Assembly: GCF_008189525.1 (NCBI RefSeq)
Contig: NZ_CP043314.1
Span: 583,989-615,988 of the forward strand
Source: Candidatus Saccharimonadota bacterium
GTDB lineage: Bacteria; Pseudomonadota; Alphaproteobacteria; CAJXXZ01; 1604HC
Direction: 5' to 3'
DNA length: 32,000 nt
In this document: piece after piece, positions 4,232 through 15,431 of the stretch
How the letters are laid out: each line of letters starts with the position of its first letter
How positions within the stretch are numbered: position 1 is the stretch's first letter
Notes under the pieces: model-generated
Database searches by the model: none
What the model was told of the DNA's origin: nothing
The model's input: the letters and a program-made list of their open reading frames with translations, nothing else
Program-made: the position numbers and the translations under genes

Positions 4232-4725
4232 TGATTTTCATAAAAAAAGCAACAAGTTTTATAAAAAATTTAACAAAGACAATAGTTAATAAGATAAATA
4301 CGAAGAATTTATTTTATAGCACAAACTCCAAACAAAACATATTCACAAAACTTCTACTAATATCTTCCCTTGTATTTATTCTTCAAGGATGTGAAGAAGA
4401 GAAACATATGAACTGCCCAAAAGGCAAATTAATAGGAATGACAAAAACAGAATTTATCAGTAAATATGGAGAAGGTGCAATAAAGCATCCGCTAGATAAC
4501 AACACATGGTTTTACGTAGATCTGATTTACATAAACAGTCTTTTTTCTAAGACTGCAAAAGGAAATTGGATGAGCGTAAGGATCAGCAATAACAAGATTG
4601 TAGAATTGAGAAAAGGCAAGCTTCCAAAGAAAATGAAAATGAAAGAACATAAAAAAGAAACATTAGTAAAGAAAAAGATTGCTGAAGAGCTGTTTGGATA
4701 TGTTGGATCTGCATCTTCATACTAA
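4231..4725 (+). CDS. bamE: BamE/SmpA-OmlA-like outer-membrane lipoprotein
   Basis: Signal peptide with lipobox ([14 protein letters not shown]). This is followed by [28 protein letters not shown], which resembles the SmpA_OmlA fold signature. The ATG at 4231 overlaps the valS TAA (TAATG). The ORF track's GTG at 4219 is an alternative start. Confidence 0.6.
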
Positions 4726-4802
4726 AATTATATGTTATTAAAACTATAAATATATATCTTTGGAATATTGTTTTCTACTGTTTTTCATGTAGAATGACTG
4801 TT

Positions 4803-4928
4803 ATGAAAGTATTCAGTTCTCTAAAAGGCTTAGTGTCAAGAAATAAATATTCTAAAATGATCAGAAGACGTGGAAAGATCAGAATAATAAATAAGAGATT
4901 TCCTAGGTTCAAAGCAGTACAAGGTTAA
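4803..4928 (+). CDS. rpmJ: 50S ribosomal protein L36 (alpha-proteobacterial long-type)
   Basis: Not in the ORF track because it is only 41 aa. It translates to [41 protein letters not shown]. This matches the MKV..SLK....R......RRKG+..VINK...RFKARQG pattern of alphaproteobacterial L36. The TAA at 4926-4928 lies 2 nt before the next start codon. Confidence 0.85.
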
Positions 4929-4930
4929 AC

Positions 4931-5206
4931 ATGCTTAAAGACAGAAAATACACCAAGTATGAACTTGTTTCAGCATTAACTCAAAGAGCTAAGCAACTGT
5001 TTGCAGGAGATGATCCTAGAGTAGAAACAAAGCATTCTGAAAAACTATCTTACATAGCGTTAAAAGAGTATATGCAAGGTCTTTTGGACATAGAATCTTT
5101 ACTTAATGAAGCTAAAATGATTTACACAGATCAGGCTGTAGCTTTTGAAGATGATGAAGATGATGACAACTATGCATTCGATGCAAACGAAGAAGACAAG
5201 CAATAA
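4931..5206 (+). CDS. rpoZ: DNA-directed RNA polymerase subunit omega
   Basis: KYELVSALTQRAKQLFAGDDPRVE....KLSYIALKEYMQGLL matches the omega core (nRFeLv.lAakRArQL ... K.v.iALrEia.G). The acidic C-terminal tail is also seen in Rickettsiales-type omega. Confidence 0.72.
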   Translation: MLKDRKYTKYELVSALTQRAKQLFAGDDPRVETKHSEKLSYIALKEYMQGLLDIESLLNEAKMIYTDQAVAFEDDEDDDNYAFDANEEDKQ

Positions 5207-5447
5207 TCTCCATCAATTTATTTCAATATTAATTCTAAACAAACTAATTAATTATCATAAATTATTATTTTAATTATTCTCATGACAAGCGTTACGTACA
5301 ATTTCTATATTAAGATTAAATATCTTAAATTAGATAAACATTTTGTAGAGCCCCTGAAATCAGAATAGTATAAAAAAAAAGATATTCTTATTCCTAGAAA
5401 TTCATTTCATTTTTTATTTATAAACGACATAAATTATACTTATAAAA

Positions 5448-5506
5448 ACATAAACATTGTGTATAAGGGTATATTTTGGTAAGTTCTTTGCAAGATCTCA
5501 GGAGGG
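5448..5506 (+). promoter_or_regulatory. conserved 5' leader with Shine-Dalgarno (AGGAGGG) and a possible promoter of the LRR operon; mirrored at 17238-17295 on the minus strand
   Basis: About 60 nt upstream of the LRR1 start are almost identical to the sequence upstream of LRR4 (acataaacattgtgtataagggtatattttggtaagttctttgcaagatctcaggaggg vs acataacattgcgtataagagtatattttggtaagttctttgcaagatctcaggaggg). A weak sigma70-like TTGTGT-17-TAAGTT can be read. The promoter call is only an inference from conservation. Confidence 0.35.
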
Positions 5507-5727
5507 ATGATGACAAGTAATTTGGATAAATTTACATCTGGAGCTAGTGCAAAACAGAGTGCTAACGCTAACGGAAGTACGAACAAGGCAAGCAAATCAA
5601 GCACTATGAGCAAAATGAGGAGCATACTGAAGCTATGCACACTTGCACTTACAGCCCAACACACAAACACGGTTGACATCCCGAAACTACACGACATCCC
5701 TAACGAACATGGTTGTTTTTATCATTT
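5448..5727 (+). repeat. outer inverted repeat, left copy (leader + first ~74 codons of LRR1)
   Basis: Aligns to the reverse complement of 17018-17295 with only a handful of mismatches and a 1-nt indel in the leader. Homology stops abruptly after ...ggttgtttttatcattt. Confidence 0.9.
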
Positions 5728-7522
5728 GAAATATACAAAAAATGGAACTTTGGATTTATATGAAAGCGGATTGCCAAAATATGAAAGTGGATTGGTAGAT
5801 CTGTTAGATGGAATGGTAGAAATGCATAAATTCAGCAAATCTGACATAGAATTTGTTGCGTTTCTAAGACATGAAATAGAAAAAATCCTTGAAGTTGATT
5901 ACAATAAGGGACTAGAAAATGACTTCTTACTTAAATTTCCAAAAATAAAGGGCATAATAGGAGATGGTGAGCTTGAAGAAGAAGTTTTAGCTGAACATGG
6001 ATACTCAAAAGAAGATTATGACAGTACTATTACTGGGTATAATGTTAGAGATTCTTTGGATTGTTTGATTCGTGCCAAGAGAATTTGGGGCAAAATGATT
6101 GACCAATATGGGGAAGAAGATCTTAACAAAATCAAAGATTCAGTAAAAAATGCAAACCATGAATACGAATTAGGGAAAAAAACTCACCTAAACTTAAAAG
6201 TTATGCATAATTTGGTAGGATATGGATTAAGGCAAAGAGAAGCAGCTGGTATGCCAGATGAATCTACATTTTTGCAAAGATGGTACTCTGGAAGACATGC
6301 TTATGCAGACGATAAAAAGTCTAAAGTATCTATAAAACTAGATAATAGTGCGTTTATTTATCAAGTAATTCCTACTAAAGATTCAGGCACAGACTATGAG
6401 AAGAAACCTTGCGAACGTCATTCGAATATTATGTCTGTTTCATATTTCGATGCAAATACAAAAACAGACAATTTAGTTTGGGCTGGAGATGAAAGAGAAT
6501 TAAAAGAGAGAACCTGCAAAGTTGTTCAATACAACAGCTTCCCAGATTTAAGAAACTTGGATAGAATCGGTCCAATTTTCCAATATGCACTGGCATTGAG
6601 ATATGTTCATTTAGATATCACAAGCCCTGATCATTTGTATTGGATGAGATTTGCGCAAGACTTGGAATATGTGAAATTGAGAGTTACAGAATCAGACCAC
6701 CTAAAGCACTTGGGTTTGTTGAAAAACACACAATACTTAGGTATTACTAACATAAACGTAGATGATGCAATCATTCTTCCTGAAGAAATCGGCACATTAA
6801 GCAAATTAAGGTGCTTACACTTGAGTGGAGTTGAAGGATATCCAAACCAGATTCATGGAATTAAAGGATTACGTGAAATTAAGTTCGTGGAATCCGAAGG
6901 TAAGATAGATAAAAGCTTAAGTGATTTAGATAAATTGGTACATTTGGAGTTAAGTGGTAAGGTAGAATTGCCTGAAACTATAGAATTATGGGGGCTAGAA
7001 TCTCTTGTTGCACCTAGCGCAGATATAGAAAAAATGCCTAGATTTATCTGCCCTGAATTAAGGTATTTAGATTTAGGAAGTGCAAGATTAGACCATGCTT
7101 TAGAGCCTGGAGCAAAATTACCTATATTTGCAGGTGGTAATGAAATGACCAAAGCAGTAGATTTATCTGAATGCCCTGAGCTACGTGAAGTTTGGGTTGG
7201 AAACAGAATCAACGAAGTTGACGTGTCTGTGTTTAAGAGTTGCAAAAAGTTGATGTATATTGGACTTGGAGTTGATTTTAAGTACAGTATTAAATCAGGT
7301 TTGACTGAGTATGTTAAGAAAAATGAGCTATTCTTCGAGTTACTACATCCACTTAATGCAGGTGAAAAATTGCAATACAACTGTAAGATTCCAGGAGAAG
7401 ATGGTGAGTGGCTGAAGTTAAAGAGATACCAAGAAAACCAAAAGAGAAATTGGGTAAGAAATAAAAATGCTAGATATAAGCATATGGCAAAAATCTTGAA
7501 AGAAAATGGTCAGCTAAAATAG
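5507..7522 (+). CDS. leucine-rich-repeat protein, island paralog 1 (candidate secreted effector)
   Basis: 671-aa ORF, very long for an AT-rich genome. The C-terminal half has LxxLxxLxL repeats with a eukaryote-like LPEEIGxLxxLxxLxL unit (LPEEIGTLSKLRCLHLSG, LDKLVHLELSG, PELRYLDLGS, CPELREVWVGN). The N-terminal ~330 aa have no motif I recognise. The S/T/N/A-rich head is followed by the shared MSKMR.ILKLCTLALTAQHTNTVDIPKLHD module. Confidence 0.8.
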   Translation: MMTSNLDKFTSGASAKQSANANGSTNKASKSSTMSKMRSILKLCTLALTAQHTNTVDIPKLHDIPNEHGCFYHLKYTKNGTLDLYESGLPKYESGLVDLLDGMVEMHKFSKSDIEFVAFLRHEIEKILEVDYNKGLENDFLLKFPKIKGIIGDGELEEEVLAEHGYSKEDYDSTITGYNVRDSLDCLIRAKRIWGKMIDQYGEEDLNKIKDSVKNANHEYELGKKTHLNLKVMHNLVGYGLRQREAAGMPDESTFLQRWYSGRHAYADDKKSKVSIKLDNSAFIYQVIPTKDSGTDYEKKPCERHSNIMSVSYFDANTKTDNLVWAGDERELKERTCKVVQYNSFPDLRNLDRIGPIFQYALALRYVHLDITSPDHLYWMRFAQDLEYVKLRVTESDHLKHLGLLKNTQYLGITNINVDDAIILPEEIGTLSKLRCLHLSGVEGYPNQIHGIKGLREIKFVESEGKIDKSLSDLDKLVHLELSGKVELPETIELWGLESLVAPSADIEKMPRFICPELRYLDLGSARLDHALEPGAKLPIFAGGNEMTKAVDLSECPELREVWVGNRINEVDVSVFKSCKKLMYIGLGVDFKYSIKSGLTEYVKKNELFFELLHPLNAGEKLQYNCKIPGEDGEWLKLKRYQENQKRNWVRNKNARYKHMAKILKENGQLK

Positions 7523-10500
7523 ATGGAGGCAAAAAATATGATTACAAACAAATATAAAATGGGTAATATGAGCAAAATGAGGAACATACTGAAGCTATGC
7601 ACACTTGCACTTACAGCCCAACACACAAACACGGTTGACATCCCTAAACTACACGACACCCCTAACGAACATGGTTGTTTTTATCATTTTAAGTACGTTG
7701 AAGGAACTTTTAGCATAGAAAAGAATGAAACTTTTGAACTTTTAGAGCAAATGTATGAACAAAGTAAATACAGCATAGAGGATATTAAATTAATCGCATT
7801 TCTAAGACATGAACTAGAGAAGATACTTGAAATTGATTATAAAAAAGGATTGGAAAATGATTTCTTGCTAAAGTTTCCAAAAATAGAAGAAGTTATGGGA
7901 GATGGAGAATGGGAAGAGGAGGTTTTCCTAGGTCATGGATATTCAAAAGAAGAGTATAGACAAACTGATATAGTCTGTAACGTCAGAGATGCTATTTCTT
8001 ATATGGAATATACAAAAAGAATCTGGGGCAAAATTATAAAACAAGAAGATGAGGAAACTGCTAAAGAAATAAAAGATTCAGTAAAAAATACAAATCATGA
8101 ATGCGAGCTAGGTCAGAAAACCTATCTAAACTTAGGAGCTATGCTTAATTCCATAGGATATGGATTGAGACAGAGAAAAGAAGCTAGAATGCCAGGTGAA
8201 TCTACATTTTTGCAAAGGTGGTATTCTGGAAGACATGCTTATGAAGATGACAAAAAATCTAAAGTATCTATAAAGTTGGATAATAGCAAATTTATCTATC
8301 AGGGCATACCCACTAAAGATTCAGGAACTGACTATGAGAAAAAACCTATAGAATATAATAATTCTACAGATTTGATGTATTTATCCTATTTCGATGCAAA
8401 CACAAAAACAGATAATCTGGTATGGTGTGGAGATGAAAGAGAACTTAAGGAAAGAACCTGCAAAGTTGTTCAATACAATAGCTTTCCAGATTTGAGAAAC
8501 TTGGATAGGATAGGTCCAATTTTCCAATATGCACTGGCTTTAAGGTATGTTCATTTGGATATAACAAGCCCTGATCATTTGTATTGGATGAGATTCGCAC
8601 AAGATTTGGAATATGTGAAATTGCGTGTAAAAGAATCAGATCATCTAACACATTTAGGTTTGTTGAAAAATACACAATACCTTGGAATTACCAACATAAA
8701 CGTAGACGAAGCGATCGTTCTTCCTGAAGAAATCGGCACATTAAGCAAATTAAGGTGCTTACACTTGAGTGGAGTTGAAGGATATCCGAACCAGATTCAT
8801 GGAATAAAAGGATTACGTGAAATTAAGTTCGTGGAATCTGAAGGTAAAATTGATAAAAGTTTGAGCAACCTAGATAAACTTGTTCATTTAGAGCTAAGTG
8901 GAAAAGTAGAATTGCCTGAAACCATAGAACTATGGGAACTACAATCTCTAGTTGCACCTAGTGCAGACATAGAAAAGATGCCTAAGTTTATTTGCCCTGA
9001 ATTAAGATATTTGGATCTAGGAAGTGCAAGATTAGAGCATGCTTTAGAACCTGGAGCAAAATTGCCTATATTTGCAGGTGGTAATGAAATAACAAGCGTA
9101 TCTGACTTATCTGAATGTCCAGAATTAAGAGAAGTTTGGGTTGGAAACAGAATCAACGAAGTTGATGTTGAAGTGTTTAAGAATTGCAAGAAGTTGATGT
9201 ACATAGGATTAGGAGTTGATTTTAAATATAATATCAAGCAAGGATTAACTGAGTATGTTAAGAAAAATGAGCTATTCTTAGAGTTACTACATCCACTTAA
9301 TGCAGGAGAAAAACTTCAATACAGCTGTAAGATTCCAGGTGAAGATGGTGAATGGTTGAAATTGAAGAGATACCAAGAAAATCAAAAAAGAAATTGGGTA
9401 AGAAATAAAAATGCTAGATATAAGCATATGGCAAAAATCTTGAAAGAAAATGGTCAGCTAAAATAGATGGAGGCAAAAAATATGATTACAAACAAATATA
9501 AAATGGGTAATATGAGCAAAATGAGGAACATACTGAAATTGTGTACGCTTGCACTTACAGCCCAACACACAAACACGGTTGACATCCCGAAACTACATGA
9601 CACCCCTAACGAACATGGCTGTTTTTATCATTTTAAGTACGTTGAAGGAACATTGAATCTGGAACAGAATGAAACCTACGAACTTTTGGAAGGAATGTAT
9701 GAGCAAAGCAAATACAGCTCAGAAGATATAAAATTGATTGCCTTCTTAAGACACGAACTAGAAAAGATTCTTGAAGTTGATTATAAAAAGGGGTTAGAAA
9801 ATGACTTCTTGCTCAAGTTTCCTAAAATAGAGGAAGTTATGGGAGACGGAGAATGGGAAGAAGAAGTTCTACTAGGTCATGGATACTCAAAAGAAGATTA
9901 CAGACAAACTGTTATTACCTGTAATGTTAGAGATTCTTTTGATTGCTTGATTCGCTCAAAAAGGATCTGGGGCAAGATGATTGACCAATATGGAGAAGAG
10001 GATCTAAACAAAATAAAAGATTCAATAAAAAATGCAAACCATGAGCATGAATTTGGAAAGAAAACTCATCTTAATTTAAAAGTTATGCATAATTTGGTAG
10101 GATATGGATTAAGACAAAGAGAAGCAGCTAAAATGCCAGATGAATCTACATTTTTGCAAAGATGGTACTCTGGAAGACATGCTTATGAAGATGACAAAAA
10201 ATCTAAAGTATCTATAAAGTTAGATAACAGTGCATTTATTTATCAAGGCATCCCTACTAAAGATTCAGAAACTGATTATGAAAATAAACCTTGCGAACGT
10301 GATTCAAATATTATGTATGTATCATATTTCGATGCAAATACAAAAACAGACAATTTAGTTTGGGCTGGAGATGAAAGAGAATTAAAAGAGAGAACCTGCA
10401 AAGTTGTTCAATACAATAGTTTCCCCGATTTAAGAAACTTGGACAGAATCGGTCCTATTTTCCAATATGCATTGGCTTTAAGGTATGTACATTTGGATAT

Positions 10501-11330
10501 CACTAGCCCTGATCATTTGTACTGGATGAGATTTGCACAAGACTTAGAGTATGTGAAATTGAGAGTTACAGAATCAGACCACCTAAAGCACTTGGGTTTG
10601 TTAAAAAACACACAATACCTTGGAATTACCAACATAAACGTAGATGATGCAATCGTTCTTCCTGAAGAAATTGGTAGTTTAAGCAAATTAAGATGCTTAC
10701 ATTTAAGCGGAGTTGAAGGATATCCAAACCAGATCCATGGCATTAAGGGATTACGCGAAATTAAATTCGTAGAATCTGAAGGTAAGATAGACAAAAGCTT
10801 AAGTAATCTGGACAAGCTTGTTCACTTAGAACTAAGCGGTAAAGTAGAGTTGCCTGAAACCATAGAATTATGGGAACTACAATCTCTAGTTGCACCTAGT
10901 GCAGACATAGAGAAAATGCCCCAATTTATCTGCCCTGAATTAAGATACTTAGATCTAGGAAGTGCAAGATTAGAGCATGCTTTAGAACCTGGAGCAAAAT
11001 TGCCTATATTTGCAGGTGGTAATGAAATTACTAGCGTATCTGACTTGTCCGAATGTCCTGAGCTACGTGAAGTTTGGGTTGGAAACAGAATCAACGAAGT
11101 TGACGTGTCTGTATTTAAGAGTTGTAAGAAGTTGATGTATATTGGACTTGGAGTTGATTTTAAGTACAGTATTAAATCAGGTTTGACTGAGTATGTTAAG
11201 AAAAATGAGCTATTCTTCGAGTTACTACATCCACTTAATGCAGGTGAGAAATTGCAATACAACTGCAAGATTCCAGGAGAAGATGGTGAGTGGTTGAAAT
11301 TAAAGAGATACCAAGAAAACCAAAAGAGAA
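5606..11330 (+). repeat. tandem direct repeat of whole LRR genes, about 3 units (period 1944 bp between units 2 and 3, 1962 bp between units 1 and 2)
   Basis: The ATGAGCAAAATGAGG (MSKMR) anchor recurs at 5606, 7568 and 9512. The two inter-unit junctions (…gaaaatggtcagctaaaatagatggaggcaaaaaatatgattacaaac…) are identical. Homology ends near 11330, where unit 3 acquires a different tail. Confidence 0.9.
7523..9466 (+). CDS. leucine-rich-repeat protein, island paralog 2
   Basis: 647-aa ORF starting immediately after the TAG of paralog 1. GGAGG at 7525-7529 lies 8 nt upstream of the ATG at 7538, so 7538 is the more likely true start. The gene is highly similar to paralogs 1 and 3. Confidence 0.8.
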   Translation: MEAKNMITNKYKMGNMSKMRNILKLCTLALTAQHTNTVDIPKLHDTPNEHGCFYHFKYVEGTFSIEKNETFELLEQMYEQSKYSIEDIKLIAFLRHELEKILEIDYKKGLENDFLLKFPKIEEVMGDGEWEEEVFLGHGYSKEEYRQTDIVCNVRDAISYMEYTKRIWGKIIKQEDEETAKEIKDSVKNTNHECELGQKTYLNLGAMLNSIGYGLRQRKEARMPGESTFLQRWYSGRHAYEDDKKSKVSIKLDNSKFIYQGIPTKDSGTDYEKKPIEYNNSTDLMYLSYFDANTKTDNLVWCGDERELKERTCKVVQYNSFPDLRNLDRIGPIFQYALALRYVHLDITSPDHLYWMRFAQDLEYVKLRVKESDHLTHLGLLKNTQYLGITNINVDEAIVLPEEIGTLSKLRCLHLSGVEGYPNQIHGIKGLREIKFVESEGKIDKSLSNLDKLVHLELSGKVELPETIELWELQSLVAPSADIEKMPKFICPELRYLDLGSARLEHALEPGAKLPIFAGGNEITSVSDLSECPELREVWVGNRINEVDVEVFKNCKKLMYIGLGVDFKYNIKQGLTEYVKKNELFLELLHPLNAGEKLQYSCKIPGEDGEWLKLKRYQENQKRNWVRNKNARYKHMAKILKENGQLK

Positions 11331-11389
11331 GCTGGATGAGAAAAGAACACCCAAGGTACAAACGCATGGAAAAGATCTTTAAGGTTTAA
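9467..11389 (+). CDS. leucine-rich-repeat protein, island paralog 3 (mosaic of paralogs 1 and 2, unique C-terminal tail)
   Basis: 640-aa ORF with the same TAG-ATGGAGGCAAAAAATATG junction as at 7520-7540, so the likely true start is 9482. The sequence alternates between paralog-2-like and paralog-1-like blocks. The last ~20 aa (SWMRKEHPRYKRMEKIFKV) are unique. Confidence 0.8.
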   Translation: MEAKNMITNKYKMGNMSKMRNILKLCTLALTAQHTNTVDIPKLHDTPNEHGCFYHFKYVEGTLNLEQNETYELLEGMYEQSKYSSEDIKLIAFLRHELEKILEVDYKKGLENDFLLKFPKIEEVMGDGEWEEEVLLGHGYSKEDYRQTVITCNVRDSFDCLIRSKRIWGKMIDQYGEEDLNKIKDSIKNANHEHEFGKKTHLNLKVMHNLVGYGLRQREAAKMPDESTFLQRWYSGRHAYEDDKKSKVSIKLDNSAFIYQGIPTKDSETDYENKPCERDSNIMYVSYFDANTKTDNLVWAGDERELKERTCKVVQYNSFPDLRNLDRIGPIFQYALALRYVHLDITSPDHLYWMRFAQDLEYVKLRVTESDHLKHLGLLKNTQYLGITNINVDDAIVLPEEIGSLSKLRCLHLSGVEGYPNQIHGIKGLREIKFVESEGKIDKSLSNLDKLVHLELSGKVELPETIELWELQSLVAPSADIEKMPQFICPELRYLDLGSARLEHALEPGAKLPIFAGGNEITSVSDLSECPELREVWVGNRINEVDVSVFKSCKKLMYIGLGVDFKYSIKSGLTEYVKKNELFFELLHPLNAGEKLQYNCKIPGEDGEWLKLKRYQENQKRSWMRKEHPRYKRMEKIFKV

Positions 11390-11393
11390 TTCA

Positions 11394-12143
11394 GTGGGAG
11401 CAAGAGGAGATCGTTCTACTAAGGAAAAAAAAGAAAAAGCAAAGGAAGTAGAACAGCAGCAAGAAACCATAATTGATGAAGAACCCGTCGATCCAGATAT
11501 AGGAAGTATATGTCAGATATACGATGAGAAGTGGGGCGAGACGGTAAGGAACGTAAATGCAGGTACGTATCAGAAACTGATGACGCTTACAAATTTCGGT
11601 ACAATTGAAGAACTAGAAATAGAGGAAGAGCTGTCTGAGCCTTACACTATAAAAGGTAAGTGTTTCTTTTGGGAAGAGATATATGGCGACGTAGTTGGCA
11701 TGGAACCGAAGGTCACATTAGCAACAGAAGGTAAAACAAGATATTGGCACGGAGTTATAACTGAGTGGATCGAAGGTGGAACTGATCTTAAGGACGAAAG
11801 ATATTACTACGAATTCGAGATGCGACCAAAATTATGGTATAGGATGCAAAGCAGGCAAAACAAGATACATGTGTCGGATAAGGGCATGCGTGTTAAGGAA
11901 CTGGCAAGCAAACTAATCGAAGATGCGATGCAGAATAATAAAAATACGAAAGTAAAGTTTGAGCAAAAGTACGATGTTAATTTCGCAAAAGTGAAATCAG
12001 CTCAAAATAATCCAAATGAACCATTGATAGAATATGCTGTGCAATATGAAGAAACTACTTACGGTTTCTTCCAAAGATTACTAAGCAATCATGGTATATT
12101 TTATTATTATAAAGTCGAAGACAATTATTCCTGCCTAAGCTAA
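11394..12143 (+). pseudogene. vgrG: vgrG 5' fragment (gp27-like N-terminal ~240 codons only); truncated paralog, possibly still translated
   Basis: Residues ~33-240 are identical to residues ~28-235 of the full VgrG (12853-15426, minus strand) except for two positions. After ...GIFYYYK the sequence diverges and stops 9 codons later (VEDNYSCLS*). There is only a GTG start, 5 nt after the LRR3 stop, and no ATG. Confidence 0.75.
11489..12113 (+). repeat. inner inverted repeat, left copy (vgrG 5' region)
   Basis: Hand alignment to the reverse complement of 14722-15346 gives ~625 bp with about 31 mismatches and no indels seen. The first ~110 bp are identical. Confidence 0.9.
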
Positions 12144-12274
12144 ATTCCACTTATTTAAAAAATCTGATTACTAGAGCTTACAATTAAAAAGATTGATAAG
12201 TGATAAAACTACAAAAACATAAACATACAAAATCAGAATTATCAACAAAATATTTCAACTGTAGTAAGAAAATA

Positions 12275-12853
12275 CTAACCCATCTCTACGCCAGATTCAA
12301 AATAAGTTTTCTTGATTATTTTTCCTTCTGGATCATATACAGTCCATTGCCCATCTTTTAAATCTTCAAGATACATTCCAGACTCCATGATAGAACCTGT
12401 TTTCGGATAAAAAGTCACAGAAAAACCATTCAATTTATTTTTCTGGAAAATTTCTTGTTTTAACAATTCTCCTTTTTCGAAAACCAAAAACAGCCCGCTT
12501 TTCTCTCCATTTTTGTAATTACCCTTATTAGATATTCCATTTGCATCAAATACGTACACAGGTCCGTGCATCAAATCATCTTTATAATTTGTAATCATTA
12601 ATAAATTCCCAGATTCATATATTTCCATAGGCCCATTCATCTTATTACCAGAATAATTTGTGCGTCTCGTTATGACACTTTTCTCATAAAGAGTCTCTTC
12701 GCCTTCTTTTTCTCCAGCTTTGGAATAGTATCTCTGTACCAGATTTCCTTCTTTATCCCTTATTTCATTATAATCTAAATCACTTTGATCTGATTCTTTG
12801 ACTGCTCCACAAGGCTTATAAAAATCGACTATTTGTTCTTTTGTTATATTCAT
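12275..12853 (-). CDS. MORN-repeat-variant (YwqK-like) protein, translationally coupled to vgrG
   Basis: 192 aa with repeated units of G....Y..G...G of ~23 aa (NYSGNKMNGPMEIYESGNLL, NYKDDLMHGPVYVFDANGIS, NYKNGEKSGLFLVFEKGELL, FQKNKLNGFSVTFYPKTGSI, MYLEDLKDGQWTVYDPEGKI). The ATG overlaps the vgrG TAA by 1 nt (CTAATG at 12851-12856). Confidence 0.7.
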   Translation of the reverse strand: MNITKEQIVDFYKPCGAVKESDQSDLDYNEIRDKEGNLVQRYYSKAGEKEGEETLYEKSVITRRTNYSGNKMNGPMEIYESGNLLMITNYKDDLMHGPVYVFDANGISNKGNYKNGEKSGLFLVFEKGELLKQEIFQKNKLNGFSVTFYPKTGSIMESGMYLEDLKDGQWTVYDPEGKIIKKTYFESGVEMG

Positions 12854-15426
12854 TAGTTTATTTTTACCATTGAACCCTTTATATTAGCAATTGTGTCTGC
12901 CTTTAAATCCAATTTAGCTCCTTTTATAGACACTCCCGCTTTTCCTTCTATTGAAACTTGTCCCGAAGATTTCAAGCTTATATTAGCATTCGAAGAAATT
13001 TCTACAGATTTGCTAGATTCCATATTAATTCCATCTGCAGAAATTTTTATAGCACCTCCACTTATAGATATTGTATAATCACCAGACTTTATACTAATTG
13101 ACTTGTTCCCTTTTATATCAGATTTAAAGTCCCCACTTGATAATGAAATTGATAAATCACCTTTTTCTAATGTTGTACTCAAATTTCCTGAAGCCAATTT
13201 CATATCCAAATTACCTTTTTCTATTTCGTTAGAAATATTTCCTTCTGTGATTTTCTCTATCAAATCACCTTTGGAGATTTCTATTTTATGATGTGATTTC
13301 TCATCTCCCTTGGATAATAGAGAAATTTCCTTGCTCCCTTTTTCTAGTGTTATTTTATAATCACCCTGCTTTTCATCATCTTCAGCTAGAGTGCTTATTT
13401 CTATATTTCCATTATTTACCTGCGTATCAATATCCCCTTGTTTTACAAGCAAAATTTTGTCATTTTCTATTTCTGTAAGTAAATCTTTCTGTGCATGGAT
13501 ATAAATTTGCTCTTCTTCAGCTTTATCAGATATAGTAATTTCATTGAATCCAAAATCTTCTTTTTCATCATCAATTGTTTTGGTTCTCAATCCAGTTTTA
13601 TGAGAATCATCTGGCAAATCATATGGATTAGAATTTATGCTATTAAATACCGTACCTATAACAATAGGGTTGTCTGGATTTCCATTTTCATAAGTAACTA
13701 TTACTTCTTGTCCAACTCTAGGTATGTAAGAGCCTCCAAATCCAGCGCCTGATCCTCCCCATTGTGCGACTCTCACCCAGCAAGATCTTTCAGAATAAGA
13801 AAGCGTATCATCGTTGTCCCAGTTGAATTTTATTTTCACTCTACCTAAGTCATCAGTGTTGATTTCTGCATTATCAGGCCCTACCACAATAGCAGATTGA
13901 TATCCTAATATTTGTCTTTTTACTTTAGGAAGCACTTTAAAAACTGTATTCTCTTTCAGGAAAATAGATTCATTTACATAAGAATATTCAAACCCACTTA
14001 CTTGACCAGCTTTGCTTTTTATATTTTGTTGTTTGTACAAAGGGTCAGTTAACGACTCTTCTGCCATTTCTGGGTTTTTCAAAAACAGTTTATGCTTAGT
14101 TTTTCTAGCATAGTATTTATTATCTATGACTTCTTTTACCTGATCAGGAAGATCTCTTTTTGATGCTGCTTTAACATCTGATTTAATTTTTTTTATTTTA
14201 CTTTTCTTTTCAGTTTTGTAAACTTTTGTATGTTGATATAAATCTAGGGCAGATTTTAGCTCAAACAAATATCCAGGGCTAATCAAAAAATTACTTGTCA
14301 CAGACTTATATTGAGTTTTTACAGACTCTGATGAGTCAGTAATATGCTTTGCATGGTCCTCTGCAGCATCTGGGTCAGTTAATGTTTCGAAGTATTCATT
14401 ATTTTCAAAGCCTTCTTCAGCATTTCCCTCATGCTTTTTCTCTTCAACTTTTCCAAGTTTATCGAATTCTACCTCGATACCTGCTTTTTCGTAATTTCGA
14501 CCTCTTGCCTTTTGTTTTCCTATCGCATATCTGTTTACTTTTCCCCATGTATCCACAAAAGGGCTGTTTATTTCATCTGATCCCTGTTTAGATAAGAACA
14601 AGTTGTCATAATTAGCTTCGACCTTGTCATTATCACCTATTTCAATCTTACGTATGCCTGTAATAGGTTCCATTTTGGAAGTGTTATCCTTGAATATGAT
14701 TTTACTTCCATCTTTCGCATGTTTATAGTAATAAAATATACCATGATTGCTCAGTAACCTTTGAAAAAACTCATATGTAGTTTCTTCATATTGAACTGCA
14801 TATTCTATTAACGGTCCGTTTGGATTATTTTGAGCTGATTTCACTTTTGCGAAATTAACATCGTACTTTTGCTCAAATTTTACTTTCGTATTCTTGTTAT
14901 TCTGCATCGCATCTTCGATTAGTTTGCTTGCCAGCTCCTTAACACGCATGCCCTTATCCGACACATGTATCTTGTTTTGCCTGCTTTGCATCCTATACCA
15001 TAATTTTGGTCGCATCTCGAATTCGTAGTAATATCTTTCATCCTTAAGATCAGTTCCACCTTCGATCCACTCAGTTATAACTCCGTGCCAATATCTTGTT
15101 TTACCTTCTGTTGCCAATGTGACCTTCGGCTCCATACCAACTACGTCGCCATATATCTCTTCCCAAAAGAAACACTTACCTTTTATAGTATAAGGTTCCG
15201 ATAATTCTTCCTCTATCTCGAGTTCTTCAATTGTACCGAAATTTGTAAGCGTCATCAGTTTCTGATACGTACCTGCATTTACGTTCCTTACCGTCTCGCC
15301 CCACTTCTCATCGTATATCTGACATATACTTCCTATATCTGGATCGGTAGTTTGAGATTCAGCACTTTTCTGTGCAGAAACTTCACCGTCTTTAGTTTTC
15401 TTTTTCTCTTTATTTTGTTTAATCAT
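12853..15426 (-). CDS. vgrG: type VI secretion spike protein VgrG (gp27-like + gp5-like OB fold + beta-helix; no C-terminal effector domain evident)
   Basis: The classic VgrG core is present: GYQSAIVVGPDNAEINTDDLGRVKIKFNWDND....SCWVRVAQWGGSGAGFGGSYIPRVGQEVIVTYENGNPDNPIVIGTVFNS...PYDLPD..HKTGLRTKT......GFNEITISDKAEEEQIYIHAQKDL. It is followed by short K/S/G/D-rich beta-helix repeats (EKGDLSISLSSGDFKSDIKGNKSISIKSGDYTISISGG...) and ends in ...GSMVKIN. Confidence 0.92.
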   Translation of the reverse strand: MIKQNKEKKKTKDGEVSAQKSAESQTTDPDIGSICQIYDEKWGETVRNVNAGTYQKLMTLTNFGTIEELEIEEELSEPYTIKGKCFFWEEIYGDVVGMEPKVTLATEGKTRYWHGVITEWIEGGTDLKDERYYYEFEMRPKLWYRMQSRQNKIHVSDKGMRVKELASKLIEDAMQNNKNTKVKFEQKYDVNFAKVKSAQNNPNGPLIEYAVQYEETTYEFFQRLLSNHGIFYYYKHAKDGSKIIFKDNTSKMEPITGIRKIEIGDNDKVEANYDNLFLSKQGSDEINSPFVDTWGKVNRYAIGKQKARGRNYEKAGIEVEFDKLGKVEEKKHEGNAEEGFENNEYFETLTDPDAAEDHAKHITDSSESVKTQYKSVTSNFLISPGYLFELKSALDLYQHTKVYKTEKKSKIKKIKSDVKAASKRDLPDQVKEVIDNKYYARKTKHKLFLKNPEMAEESLTDPLYKQQNIKSKAGQVSGFEYSYVNESIFLKENTVFKVLPKVKRQILGYQSAIVVGPDNAEINTDDLGRVKIKFNWDNDDTLSYSERSCWVRVAQWGGSGAGFGGSYIPRVGQEVIVTYENGNPDNPIVIGTVFNSINSNPYDLPDDSHKTGLRTKTIDDEKEDFGFNEITISDKAEEEQIYIHAQKDLLTEIENDKILLVKQGDIDTQVNNGNIEISTLAEDDEKQGDYKITLEKGSKEISLLSKGDEKSHHKIEISKGDLIEKITEGNISNEIEKGNLDMKLASGNLSTTLEKGDLSISLSSGDFKSDIKGNKSISIKSGDYTISISGGAIKISADGINMESSKSVEISSNANISLKSSGQVSIEGKAGVSIKGAKLDLKADTIANIKGSMVKIN
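14722..15346 (-). repeat. inner inverted repeat, right copy (5' region of intact vgrG)
   Basis: Reverse complement of 11489-12113; see the left copy. Confidence 0.9.
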
Positions 15427-15431
15427 GCTAT

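What the first reader, a model, noticed from the sequence alone, without database searches (positions are those of the whole stretch)
11394..12143. Truncated vgrG 5' copy differs from the intact gene almost exclusively at synonymous sites
I hand-aligned 11489-12113 to the reverse complement of 14722-15346 and counted about 31 nucleotide mismatches over ~625 bp. Only two codons change the amino acid (E/G and G/E, near the 3' end). One 40-nt stretch alone has 8 mismatches, all silent (gaactagaaatagaggaagagctgtctgagccttacact vs gaactcgagatagaggaagaattatcggaaccttatact; both encode ELEIEEELSEPYT). A decaying pseudogene should not show this pattern. Either the fragment is translated and under selection, for example as a gp27-like N-terminal protein or as a stored alternative 5' end. 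Or it was truncated very recently from a functional second vgrG, or it is kept in register by conversion from other functional copies. It has its own K/E-rich leader (MGARGDRSTKEKKEKAKEVEQQQETIIDEEPV), comparable in character to the intact gene's MIKQNKEKKKTKDGEVSAQKSAESQTT. It has only a GTG start. The repeat region also looks visibly richer in G+C than the surrounding DNA.
Basis: seen in the sequence. Interest (0 to 1): 0.7.

Follow-up and report, generated by a model that had tools for sequence, protein, structure and literature searches.

The report
Truncated vgrG copy, synonymous-only divergence
A tiny endosymbiont genome holds a cut-off, inverted second copy of the 5' third of its only type VI secretion spike gene (vgrG); the two copies differ almost only at silent sites, so the stump is not a slowly rotting pseudogene but was either truncated very recently or is still kept by selection.

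Summary
Window 11489-12113 (+) and 14722-15346 (-) form a 625-nt inverted repeat with 31 mismatches. Of these, 28 are at codon position 3 and only two change an amino acid. A codon model gives omega 0.018; omega = 1 and omega = 0.5 are both rejected (p = 4e-16 and 1e-10).

The organism is Candidatus Nesciobacter abundans, a 616-kb Holosporaceae endosymbiont of Diplonema japonicum. The stump is already annotated (QEK39303.1).

New points:
- The mismatches are clumped into two patches that are saturated at silent sites.
- GC3 is raised in the repeat.
- The four neighbouring LRR genes share a 5' module with the same mosaic pattern.
- No third vgrG copy was detected anywhere.
- The stump ends in the middle of the gp27 fold.
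- A Cytomitobacter-like relative also brackets vgrG-ywqK with near-identical inverted paralogs.

Conversion from the intact gene alone predicts omega of at least 0.5, so it cannot explain the pattern.

Best reading (about 0.5): this is the remnant of a second LRR-vgrG operon that evolved in concert with the intact gene and was truncated recently (at most about 1% neutral divergence). Two rivals stay open at about 0.2 each: a RecA-driven flip-flop of the gene body between two 5' ends, and a functional 249-aa product. Public HiFi and RNA-seq reads could decide between them.

The parts
11394..12143 (+). Truncated vgrG copy (249 aa, GTG start), annotated QEK39303.1 / WP_148972426.1
   Evidence: ORF list. 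Pfam Phage_GPD positions 2-148 of 305. TIGR03361 positions 14-167 of 513, 68 bits, below the 186-bit cut-off. Accessions.
11394..11488 (+). Stump-specific K/E-rich leader (32 codons). It starts 4 nt after the LRR3 stop codon.
   Evidence: No significant DNA similarity to the leader of the intact gene (shuffle P 0.41).
11489..12113 (+). Repeat arm F (209 codons), 95% identical to arm I
11615..11645 (+). Divergent patch 1 (arm codons 41-51): 8 silent mismatches over the conserved VgrG motif E-x-LS-x-P-Y
   Evidence: Motif comparison with P0005 in alignment A2.
12017..12083 (+). Divergent patch 2 (arm codons 175-197): 14 mismatches, including both amino-acid changes, over the conserved motif EYxVQYxE...F..RL
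12114..12143 (+). Stump-specific tail VEDNYSCLS*. Its first 15 nt match the intact gene 99 nt beyond the break (13 of 15).
   Evidence: P about 0.004 within 400 nt, 0.02 over the rest of the gene. (KVEDNYSCL against KVEANYDNL).
12144..12274 (.). A/T-rich spacer between the two convergent operons. No homology elsewhere in the window and no terminator-like site.
12275..12853 (-). ywqK-family (MORN-repeat) gene, start overlapping the vgrG stop
   Evidence: Described as an 'immunity' partner of VgrG in bioRxiv 10.1101/719211.
12853..15426 (-). Intact vgrG (857 aa, QEK39305.1): gp27 + gp5 OB-fold + beta-helix
14722..15346 (-). Repeat arm I (codons 28-236 of the intact gene)
15432..17237 (-). LRR4 gene, 5 nt upstream of the intact vgrG
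5507..11389 (+). Three tandem LRR genes (LRR1-3) directly upstream of the stump
   Evidence: Pairwise dS 0.68-0.85, omega 0.08-0.15.
5453..5733 (+). Outer inverted repeat, left arm: 54 nt upstream + Shine-Dalgarno AGGAGGG + the first 75 codons of LRR1
17011..17291 (-). Outer inverted repeat, right arm: the same module in LRR4 (96% identical, 12 mismatches)

Best explanation
The 249-codon ORF is what remains of a second LRR-vgrG operon, which lies tail-to-tail with the surviving LRR4-vgrG-ywqK operon. The two vgrG paralogs coexisted as full-length, translated genes for a long time. During that time silent sites in unconverted stretches reached saturation. RecA/RecFOR-dependent gene conversion between the inverted copies kept the rest of the first 209 post-leader codons nearly identical and raised their GC3. 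One copy then lost everything beyond codon 241 of the stump ORF (codon 236 of the intact gene). This loss was so recent that the stump has taken at most about 1% neutral divergence since. The silent-only pattern is therefore inherited from the functional past and is not evidence of a present function.

Shown directly: the repeat, the rejection of neutrality, the mosaic structure, the raised GC3, the absence of any detected third copy, and the mid-domain truncation.

Inferred: that the lost copy was once full length, the direction and timing of the loss, and that conversion is the homogenising process.
For: 1. Every class of difference is silent. Overall omega is 0.018. Even the 9 scattered 'background' differences are all silent, which rejects omega = 0.5 at p 2e-4.
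2. The differences are mosaic. Of 28 third-position differences, 19 fall in 34 codons (P 1.5e-4 for the densest 23-codon window, P 0.002 for gap variance). Inside the patches 56% of third positions differ and ML dS runs to infinity; outside them dS is 0.06. This is the signature of partial homogenisation of old paralogs.
3. The same behaviour is seen in genes that are certainly functional. LRR1-3 have dS 0.68-0.85 with omega 0.08-0.15, and some 50-codon blocks have 11-14 silent and 0-1 replacement changes. The 75-codon LRR 5' module is 96-97% identical among four otherwise divergent genes. Its site patterns are mutually incompatible (sites 27-36 group LRR1 with LRR2 against LRR3 with LRR4; site 78 groups LRR1 with LRR3 against LRR2 with LRR4), which indicates conversion among copies.
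4. GC3 is raised in exactly the recombining modules: 0.37 in the vgrG arms and 0.41 in the LRR module, against 0.21-0.29 elsewhere. This fits GC-biased conversion.
5. The recombination machinery is present: RecA/RecFOR and MutSL are reported for this genome (bioRxiv 10.1101/719211).
6. The flanks of the arm are unrelated (leaders: shuffle P 0.41; LRR 3' ends: P 0.83). The arm's identity is therefore not the result of a young duplication.
7. The stump stops right after the conserved 'GIFYYYK' strand, which aligns to about residue 172 of P. aeruginosa VgrG1 (4MTK). It covers only HMM positions 2-148 of 305 of the gp27 model. It may also lack 33 codons that canonical VgrGs possess. It looks like a broken gene rather than a designed domain.
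8. A Cytomitobacter-like relative shows the same recombining inverted-paralog architecture around vgrG-ywqK, with arms of 1310 and 263 nt at 99%.
Against: 1. Recency is a narrow window. With 505 replacement sites and at most 2 replacement changes, the stump can have been neutral for only about 0.6-1.2% divergence. I judge the chance of catching a fragment that young at only about 5-10%.
2. The leader (32 codons, with an A8 run prone to slippage) and the whole 249-codon frame are still open in a 31% G+C genome. The ORF sits 4 nt after the LRR3 stop, much as the intact gene sits 5 nt after LRR4. It is therefore probably still transcribed and translated.
3. The genome is reported to have only 8 pseudogenes, so non-functional DNA seems to be rare or short-lived.
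4. No trace of the supposedly deleted 3' part or of a second ywqK is left.
5. No second strain or outgroup was available to place the substitutions on branches.
Confidence: 0.5

Rival explanations
1. Flip-flop. RecA-mediated crossing-over between the two 625-nt inverted arms inverts the 2.6-kb segment 12114-14721 (vgrG body + ywqK). The single gene body would then alternate between two 5' ends: LRR1-3 plus a 32-aa leader, or LRR4 plus a 27-aa leader. Each arm would spend part of its time in the working gene, and both would stay under purifying selection.
For: The arms are in the same codon phase. An in-silico inversion gives an open 862-aa VgrG with the stump's leader, plus a reciprocal 244-aa stump. 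Perfect-identity blocks of 126, 104, 74, 59 and 53 nt are available for crossover. RecA/RecFOR are present. Both leaders are open and closely follow an LRR gene. Both operons have near-identical upstream regions and Shine-Dalgarno sites. The relative L084 has its vgrG-ywqK cassette between 99% identical inverted repeats of 1.3 kb. A weak hint comes from the EukProt Trinity ORF P0004 (isoform i2), which starts at the first ATG (codon 58 of the intact gene) and runs into the gene body. That is what an ATG-only ORF caller would report for a transcript carrying the GTG-started stump leader joined to the body. It could equally be an assembly chimera.
Against: Both independent assemblies of the culture, Illumina-era and PacBio HiFi, encode the same 249-aa and 857-aa products (PMC13598402). 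No protein of the inverted isomer is in the 4-member 90% cluster. Crossovers are expected mainly in the long identity blocks upstream of patch 2. Patch 2 of the stump would then almost never join the body, yet it shows about 14 silent and only 2 replacement differences. The two states seem functionally equivalent, so no advantage of switching is evident. No site-specific recombinase is encoded in the window.
Confidence: 0.2
2. The 249-aa N-terminal polypeptide (a unique extension of about 65 aa plus the first half of the gp27 module) is itself a functional protein. It would be translated by coupling to LRR3 and kept by purifying selection, for example as an accessory part of a type VI system reported to lack Hcp/TssD.
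For: Omega is 0.018 over the whole arm, including patch 2, which recombination can hardly reach. The frame and leader are open, GTG lies 4 nt after the LRR3 stop, and AAGG lies 9 nt upstream. There is no terminator-like site between LRR3 and the ORF. The stump persists in a 616-kb genome with few pseudogenes. Hcp and TssJ are reported missing in this lineage.
Against: The stump ends in the middle of the gp27 fold. It may lack a conserved strand. No comparable stand-alone protein was seen in the Cytomitobacter-like locus. In the exhaustive search the short hits cannot be told from contig-truncated genes. Structure prediction gave no usable model (pLDDT 31). I know of no precedent for a functional N-terminal half of VgrG (own knowledge).
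Confidence: 0.2
3. A neutral pseudogene kept similar only by repeated conversion from the intact gene ('selection by proxy').
For: Conversion clearly happens: clumped differences, raised GC3 and mosaic LRR modules.
Against: If the stump were neutral, replacement differences would arise in it at the mutation rate and be erased at the same rate as silent ones. The expected dN/dS among surviving differences would be 0.5-1. The observed value is 0.018; omega = 0.5 is rejected at p 1e-10 overall and p 2e-4 for the background sites alone.
Confidence: 0.05
4. An assembly artefact, or collapsed strain variation, creates a false second copy.
For: None beyond the general difficulty of assembling repeats.
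Against: The sequence is identical in the HiFi assembly. The same proteins occur on two contigs from separate projects. The arms have unique flanks on both sides.
Confidence: 0.02

Closest known systems
Multi-copy vgrG islands with truncated or orphan vgrG copies and intra-chromosomal recombination (for example Neisseria subflava, PMC10210955; Pantoea agglomerans, bioRxiv 10.1101/2023.03.17.533219)
   Same: A vgrG-derived fragment lies next to putative effector genes. Conserved vgrG sequence serves as a substrate for homologous recombination. The paralog families are mosaic.
   Different: Here there is only one intact vgrG and one stump, in a 616-kb endosymbiont genome. The stump is 3'-truncated in mid-gp27, inverted and 2.6 kb from its partner. 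A formal silent-only signature is documented.
Campylobacter fetus sap locus: RecA-dependent inversion between the conserved 5' regions (about 600 bp) of oppositely oriented sapA homologues (own knowledge; a literature search in the held library found nothing)
   Same: Inverted 5' gene segments of about 600 bp with high identity. No dedicated invertase. General recombination would produce alternative full-length genes.
   Different: In sap the invertible piece carries the promoter, and complete alternative genes with different products are swapped. Here the piece carries the gene body, the two states differ only in a 27- or 32-aa leader and the upstream operon, and inversion has not been observed.
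Concerted evolution and flip-flop of large inverted repeats (plastid IRs), and GC-biased gene conversion in bacteria (own knowledge)
   Same: Inverted copies are homogenised in tracts, GC is raised at silent sites of the recombining segments, and the homology has sharp borders.
   Different: The arms are short (625 nt) and lie within a protein-coding gene. Unconverted islands are saturated at silent sites.
Orphan rhs/cdiA toxin fragments and Neisseria pilS silent cassettes (own knowledge)
   Same: Partial gene copies share a homology block with an expressed gene and can recombine with it.
   Different: Those fragments are 5'-truncated and promoter-less, and they store protein diversity. This one is 3'-truncated, sits behind an operon, and stores almost no amino-acid diversity (2 differences).

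Membership tests
VgrG / TssI spike protein | Complete gp27-like hub module (Pfam Phage_GPD, about 305 positions) | tested here: not met
   The stump matches positions 2-148 of 305 only. It ends at the equivalent of about residue 172 of VgrG1 4MTK. The intact gene matches positions 2-281.
VgrG / TssI spike protein | gp5 OB-fold and beta-helix (Phage_base_V, Gp5_trimer_C); NCBIfam TIGR03361 above its cut-off | tested here: not met
   Absent from the stump. TIGR03361 scores 68 bits against a 186-bit cut-off. The intact gene scores 305 bits and has both domains.
Neutrally decaying pseudogene | Relaxed constraint (dN/dS near 1 on the pseudogene lineage, at least 0.5 pairwise), frameshifts or internal stops | tested here: not met
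   Omega is 0.018; omega = 0.5 is rejected at p 1e-10. The 249-codon frame is open. Only the 3' truncation is pseudogene-like.
Gene-conversion / concerted-evolution tract | Non-random (mosaic) distribution of differences with sharp homology borders | tested here: met
   Clumping P 1.5e-4 and 0.002. The flanks are unrelated. The LRR module shows incompatible site patterns.
Gene-conversion / concerted-evolution tract | Recombination machinery present in the genome | not testable with these tools
   RecA/RecFOR and MutSL are reported by George et al. (bioRxiv 10.1101/719211). These genes lie outside the window, so I did not verify them.
Invertible DNA switch | Inverted repeats flanking the segment, with both products in frame | tested here: met
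Invertible DNA switch | Both orientations present in the population | tested here: inconclusive
   Two assemblies of the same culture show one orientation. The Trinity ORF P0004 is ambiguous.
Invertible DNA switch | Dedicated site-specific recombinase nearby | tested here: not met
   No recombinase domain in any ORF of the window scanned against Pfam.

The most novel reading that the evidence does not exclude
The stump's reading frame is under selection today. One route is RecA-mediated inversion, which would let the only vgrG body alternate between two LRR-effector operons and two N-terminal leaders: a recombinase-free flip-flop inside a structural type VI secretion gene, in a 616-kb genome. 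The other route is that the 249-aa half-gp27 product has its own role in a type VI system reported to lack Hcp.
Probability: 0.38. Interest if true: 0.65.

Novelty: new member of a known kind. Interest (0 to 1): 0.42.

Why it matters
Holosporaceae endosymbionts keep a type VI secretion system even at about 0.6 Mb, and it is thought to be central to their interaction with the host. How its effector loci evolve is unknown. This locus shows that homologous recombination still shapes paralogs in such a reduced genome: conserved 5' modules, mosaic tracts and raised GC3, in both vgrG and the flanking LRR genes. It is also a clean case where a 'pseudogene' annotation and a selection signature disagree. 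If the stump proves old, or the segment proves invertible, it would be a simple recombinase-free way to re-wire a secretion spike to different effector operons. If not, it dates a very recent loss of a second spike gene.

Tried and rejected
1. Close relatives. Scanning genome contigs with the arm peptides gave 12 pattern matches but no retrievable locus; I suspect the source region is masked.
2. A second genome-contig scan, using a profile of the central domain, was swamped by generic VgrGs. The one Holosporaceae MAG recovered (L080) showed only a vgrG + ywqK pairing.
3. The metagenome scan found only a hit at 24% identity.
4. Three word-indexed protein searches found no Cytomitobacter or other close homologue.
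5. Nucleotide sequences of the Trinity transcripts were not obtainable, so the 31 diagnostic sites could not be used to ask which copy is transcribed.
6. AlphaFold2 on the stump with a 5-sequence alignment failed (mean pLDDT 30.8). I ran no fold search, and the idea of an Hcp-like stand-alone domain stays untested.
7. I looked for remains of the deleted 3' part or of a second ywqK in 12114-12274. Nothing was significant apart from the 15-nt / 9-codon match at +99 nt.
8. I found no intrinsic terminator between the convergent operons (0 sites, against 6.0 +/- 2.4 in shuffles), no Rfam family apart from two tRNAs, and no recombinase.
9. The leaders show no significant DNA homology.
10. A literature search for the C. 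fetus sap inversion in the held library returned nothing, so that comparison rests on my own knowledge.

Full report
**What is there**

The window is from Candidatus Nesciobacter abundans, a Holosporaceae endosymbiont of the diplonemid Diplonema japonicum with a 616-kb genome. It is identical to OY490516.1 over the parts fetched. The proteins carry GenBank accessions QEK39300-39306.

The locus is a nested inverted structure inserted between housekeeping genes: valS, rpmJ and rpoZ on the left, tRNA-Gln, an exonuclease-family gene, rnt and rnd on the right.
- On the + strand, three tandem LRR genes (5507-11389) are followed, 4 nt after the last stop, by the 249-codon vgrG stump (11394-12143).
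- On the - strand, LRR4 (15432-17237) is followed 5 nt later by the intact 857-codon vgrG (12853-15426) and an overlapping ywqK-family gene (12275-12853).
- The two operons converge on a 131-nt spacer.

Two inverted repeats exist. The inner one is the finding (11489-12113 against 14722-15346). The outer one (5453-5733 against 17011-17291, 96% identical) joins the upstream region, Shine-Dalgarno site and first 75 codons of LRR1 and LRR4.

**Checking the observation**

There are exactly 31 mismatches in 625 nt, and both arms are in the same codon phase. By codon position the mismatches split 1/2/28. There are two amino-acid changes: E/G and, 15 codons later, G/E. Nei-Gojobori gives dN/dS 0.017.

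A pairwise maximum-likelihood codon model gives omega 0.018, dS 0.25 and dN 0.004. It rejects omega = 1 (p 4e-16). More relevantly, it rejects omega = 0.5 (p 1e-10). That value is the lowest expected if one of the two lineages had been free of constraint.

**New structure in the data**

1. The mismatches are not spread evenly. Nineteen of the 28 third-position differences lie in two patches of 11 and 23 codons (P 1.5e-4 for the densest 23-codon window, P 0.002 for gap variance).
   - Inside the patches 56% of third positions differ, which is saturation, and ML dS diverges.
   - Outside them dS is 0.06, and all 9 differences are silent (omega = 0.5 rejected, p 2e-4).
   - Both patches lie on the most conserved VgrG motifs.
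2. GC3 is 0.373 in the arm against 0.230 in the rest of the same gene (p 9e-5), and against 0.21-0.29 in other genes. The shared LRR 5' module has GC3 0.41.
3. The LRR genes behave in the same way.
   - LRR1-3 are old paralogs (dS 0.68-0.85) under strong constraint (omega 0.08-0.15).
   - LRR4 is nearly unrelated to them except for the 75-codon 5' module.
   - That module's variable sites give mutually incompatible groupings of the four copies, which indicates conversion.
4. The flanks of the vgrG arm are unrelated on both sides. The 95% identity is therefore not the residue of a young duplication. It is a homogenised block inside old, diverged paralogous operons.
5. No third copy was detected.
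   - The scan of species-representative genomes matched 12 stretches, which I read as 6 peptides x 2 arms (inference).
   - The word-indexed search found only the gene's own 4-member cluster.
   - The exhaustive HMMER search of 1.84 billion representatives found nothing above 34% identity outside that cluster.

**What the stump encodes**

It carries a unique N-terminal extension and roughly the first half of the gp27 module: Pfam positions 2-148 of 305, and TIGR03361 positions 14-167 of 513, below the cut-off.

It stops right after the conserved 'GIFYYYK' strand, which aligns to about residue 172 of P. aeruginosa VgrG1. The first 15 nt after the break match the intact gene 99 nt further on (13 of 15; KVEDNYSCL against KVEANYDNL; P about 0.004-0.02). 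If that match is real, the stump has also lost 33 codons that canonical VgrGs possess. After it, all similarity ends.

Structure prediction failed for lack of homologues.

**Explanations**

Conversion from the intact gene into a neutral stump cannot give the pattern. Replacement differences would arise in the stump and be erased at the same rate as silent ones, so dN/dS among the surviving differences should be 0.5-1. All 29 silent differences must therefore have accumulated while both arms were parts of selected reading frames. Three scenarios satisfy this.

A. Recent truncation (about 0.5).
- Two full-length paralogous operons coexisted for long and exchanged tracts.
- One vgrG was then truncated so recently that fewer than about 3-6 neutral replacement changes were expected in 505 sites, that is, at most about 0.6-1.2% divergence.
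- This is simple, and it fits the broken-looking 3' end and the general behaviour of the locus. But it needs a narrow time window.

B. Flip-flop (about 0.2).
- Crossing-over between the arms inverts 12114-14721.
- The in-silico product is an open 862-aa VgrG with the stump's leader plus a reciprocal 244-aa stump. Identity blocks of 126, 104, 74, 59 and 53 nt are available, and RecA/RecFOR are reported.
- Against it: both assemblies (Illumina-era, and PacBio HiFi of the same culture) show one orientation. Patch 2, next to the 3' edge of the homology, would almost never be carried into the working gene, yet it is constrained.

C. A functional 249-aa product (about 0.2).
- This explains patch 2, the open leader and the persistence of the ORF in a genome with only 8 reported pseudogenes.
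- But the protein ends in mid-fold and I know of no precedent.

**Transcription**

The stump lies 4 nt behind LRR3, and no terminator-like site occurs anywhere in 4700-17700. By inference it is co-transcribed with LRR1-3.

EukProt holds two Trinity ORFs from the host transcriptome.
- P0001 starts with the intact gene's leader.
- P0004 (isoform i2) starts at the first internal ATG and continues into the gene body.
- The second form is what an ATG-only ORF caller would report for a transcript carrying the GTG-started stump leader. That hints that the stump's 5' end is transcribed, and it is compatible with either an assembly chimera or an inverted isomer.
- Both ORFs end in a frame-shifted re-read of 14542-14460, which is an assembly loop. 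The nucleotide sequences were not retrievable.

**Comparison with a relative**

The best non-self homologue with a genome context, P0056 (33% identity), lies on a 621,866-bp circular contig. I take this to be a Cytomitobacter, on the basis of genome size and source.

There, vgrG and a ywqK-like gene are bracketed by two inverted paralogs of 556 and 558 aa.
- They are 99% identical over 1310 + 263 nt, including about 108 nt upstream.
- An ~85-aa cassette in the middle is completely different.
- No vgrG stump is present.

So recombining inverted effector paralogs around the spike gene recur in this lineage, but a stump does not.

**Verdict**

The thing itself is already annotated. Its kind, a truncated vgrG paralog in a recombining effector island, is known from larger genomes. 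What is unusual is the setting (a 616-kb genome with a single intact vgrG), the inverted geometry that would regenerate a full gene on crossover, and the clean silent-only, mosaic signature. Public long reads and RNA-seq can settle the open alternatives quickly.

Noticed in passing
window 5453-5733, 7567-7695, 9511-9639, 17011-17291: All four LRR genes share a G+C-rich 5' module (up to 75 codons, 96-97% nucleotide identity). For LRR1 and LRR4 it extends 54 nt upstream and includes the AGGAGGG Shine-Dalgarno site. Beyond the module, LRR4 is only distantly related to LRR1-3. The variable sites show incompatible groupings, which indicates conversion among copies. The module may be a shared export or targeting domain.
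   Followed up: partly
window 5507-11389: The three tandem LRR paralogs have dS 0.68-0.85 but omega of only 0.08-0.15. Blocks of 50 codons show 11-14 silent and 0-1 replacement changes. Block-wise similarity differs between pairs, so the array is mosaic.
   Followed up: partly
L084 8118-15308 (621,866-bp circular contig, Cytomitobacter-like): vgrG (964 aa) and a ywqK-like gene are bracketed by inverted paralogs of 556 and 558 aa with a signal-peptide-like N-terminus. They are 99% identical over 1310 + 263 nt, but an ~85-aa internal cassette is completely different. This looks like a hypervariable cassette inside a homogenised inverted repeat.
   Followed up: partly
window 14298 and 14460-14542 (-), proteins P0001 and P0004: Two 'Diplonema japonicum' proteins in EukProt are endosymbiont vgrG transcripts. 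Both end in a frame-shifted re-read of an upstream part of vgrG, which suggests a Trinity loop artefact or, less likely, a real local duplication.
   Followed up: partly
window 15230-15426 (-) and 12856-13310 (-): The intact VgrG has an N-terminal extension of about 50-65 aa that aligns with no other VgrG. Its last 150 residues weakly resemble the small Francisella TssI (NF041249, E 1.6e-8, below the cut-off).
   Followed up: no
window 12114-12128 against 14608-14622: The first 15 nt after the end of the repeat match the intact gene 99 nt further downstream (13 of 15, in frame). This suggests a 33-codon deletion in the stump before all similarity ends.
   Followed up: yes
window 4700-17700: There is no intrinsic-terminator-like site on either strand, against 6.0 +/- 2.4 in shuffles. 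The two convergent operons are separated by only 131 nt, so read-through antisense transcription of ywqK and vgrG seems likely.
   Followed up: no
window 17359-17431 (-): A tRNA-Gln gene lies directly outside the outer inverted repeat, next to the LRR4 upstream region. The whole LRR-vgrG block (5453-17291) is richer in G+C than its flanks, which is island-like.
   Followed up: no
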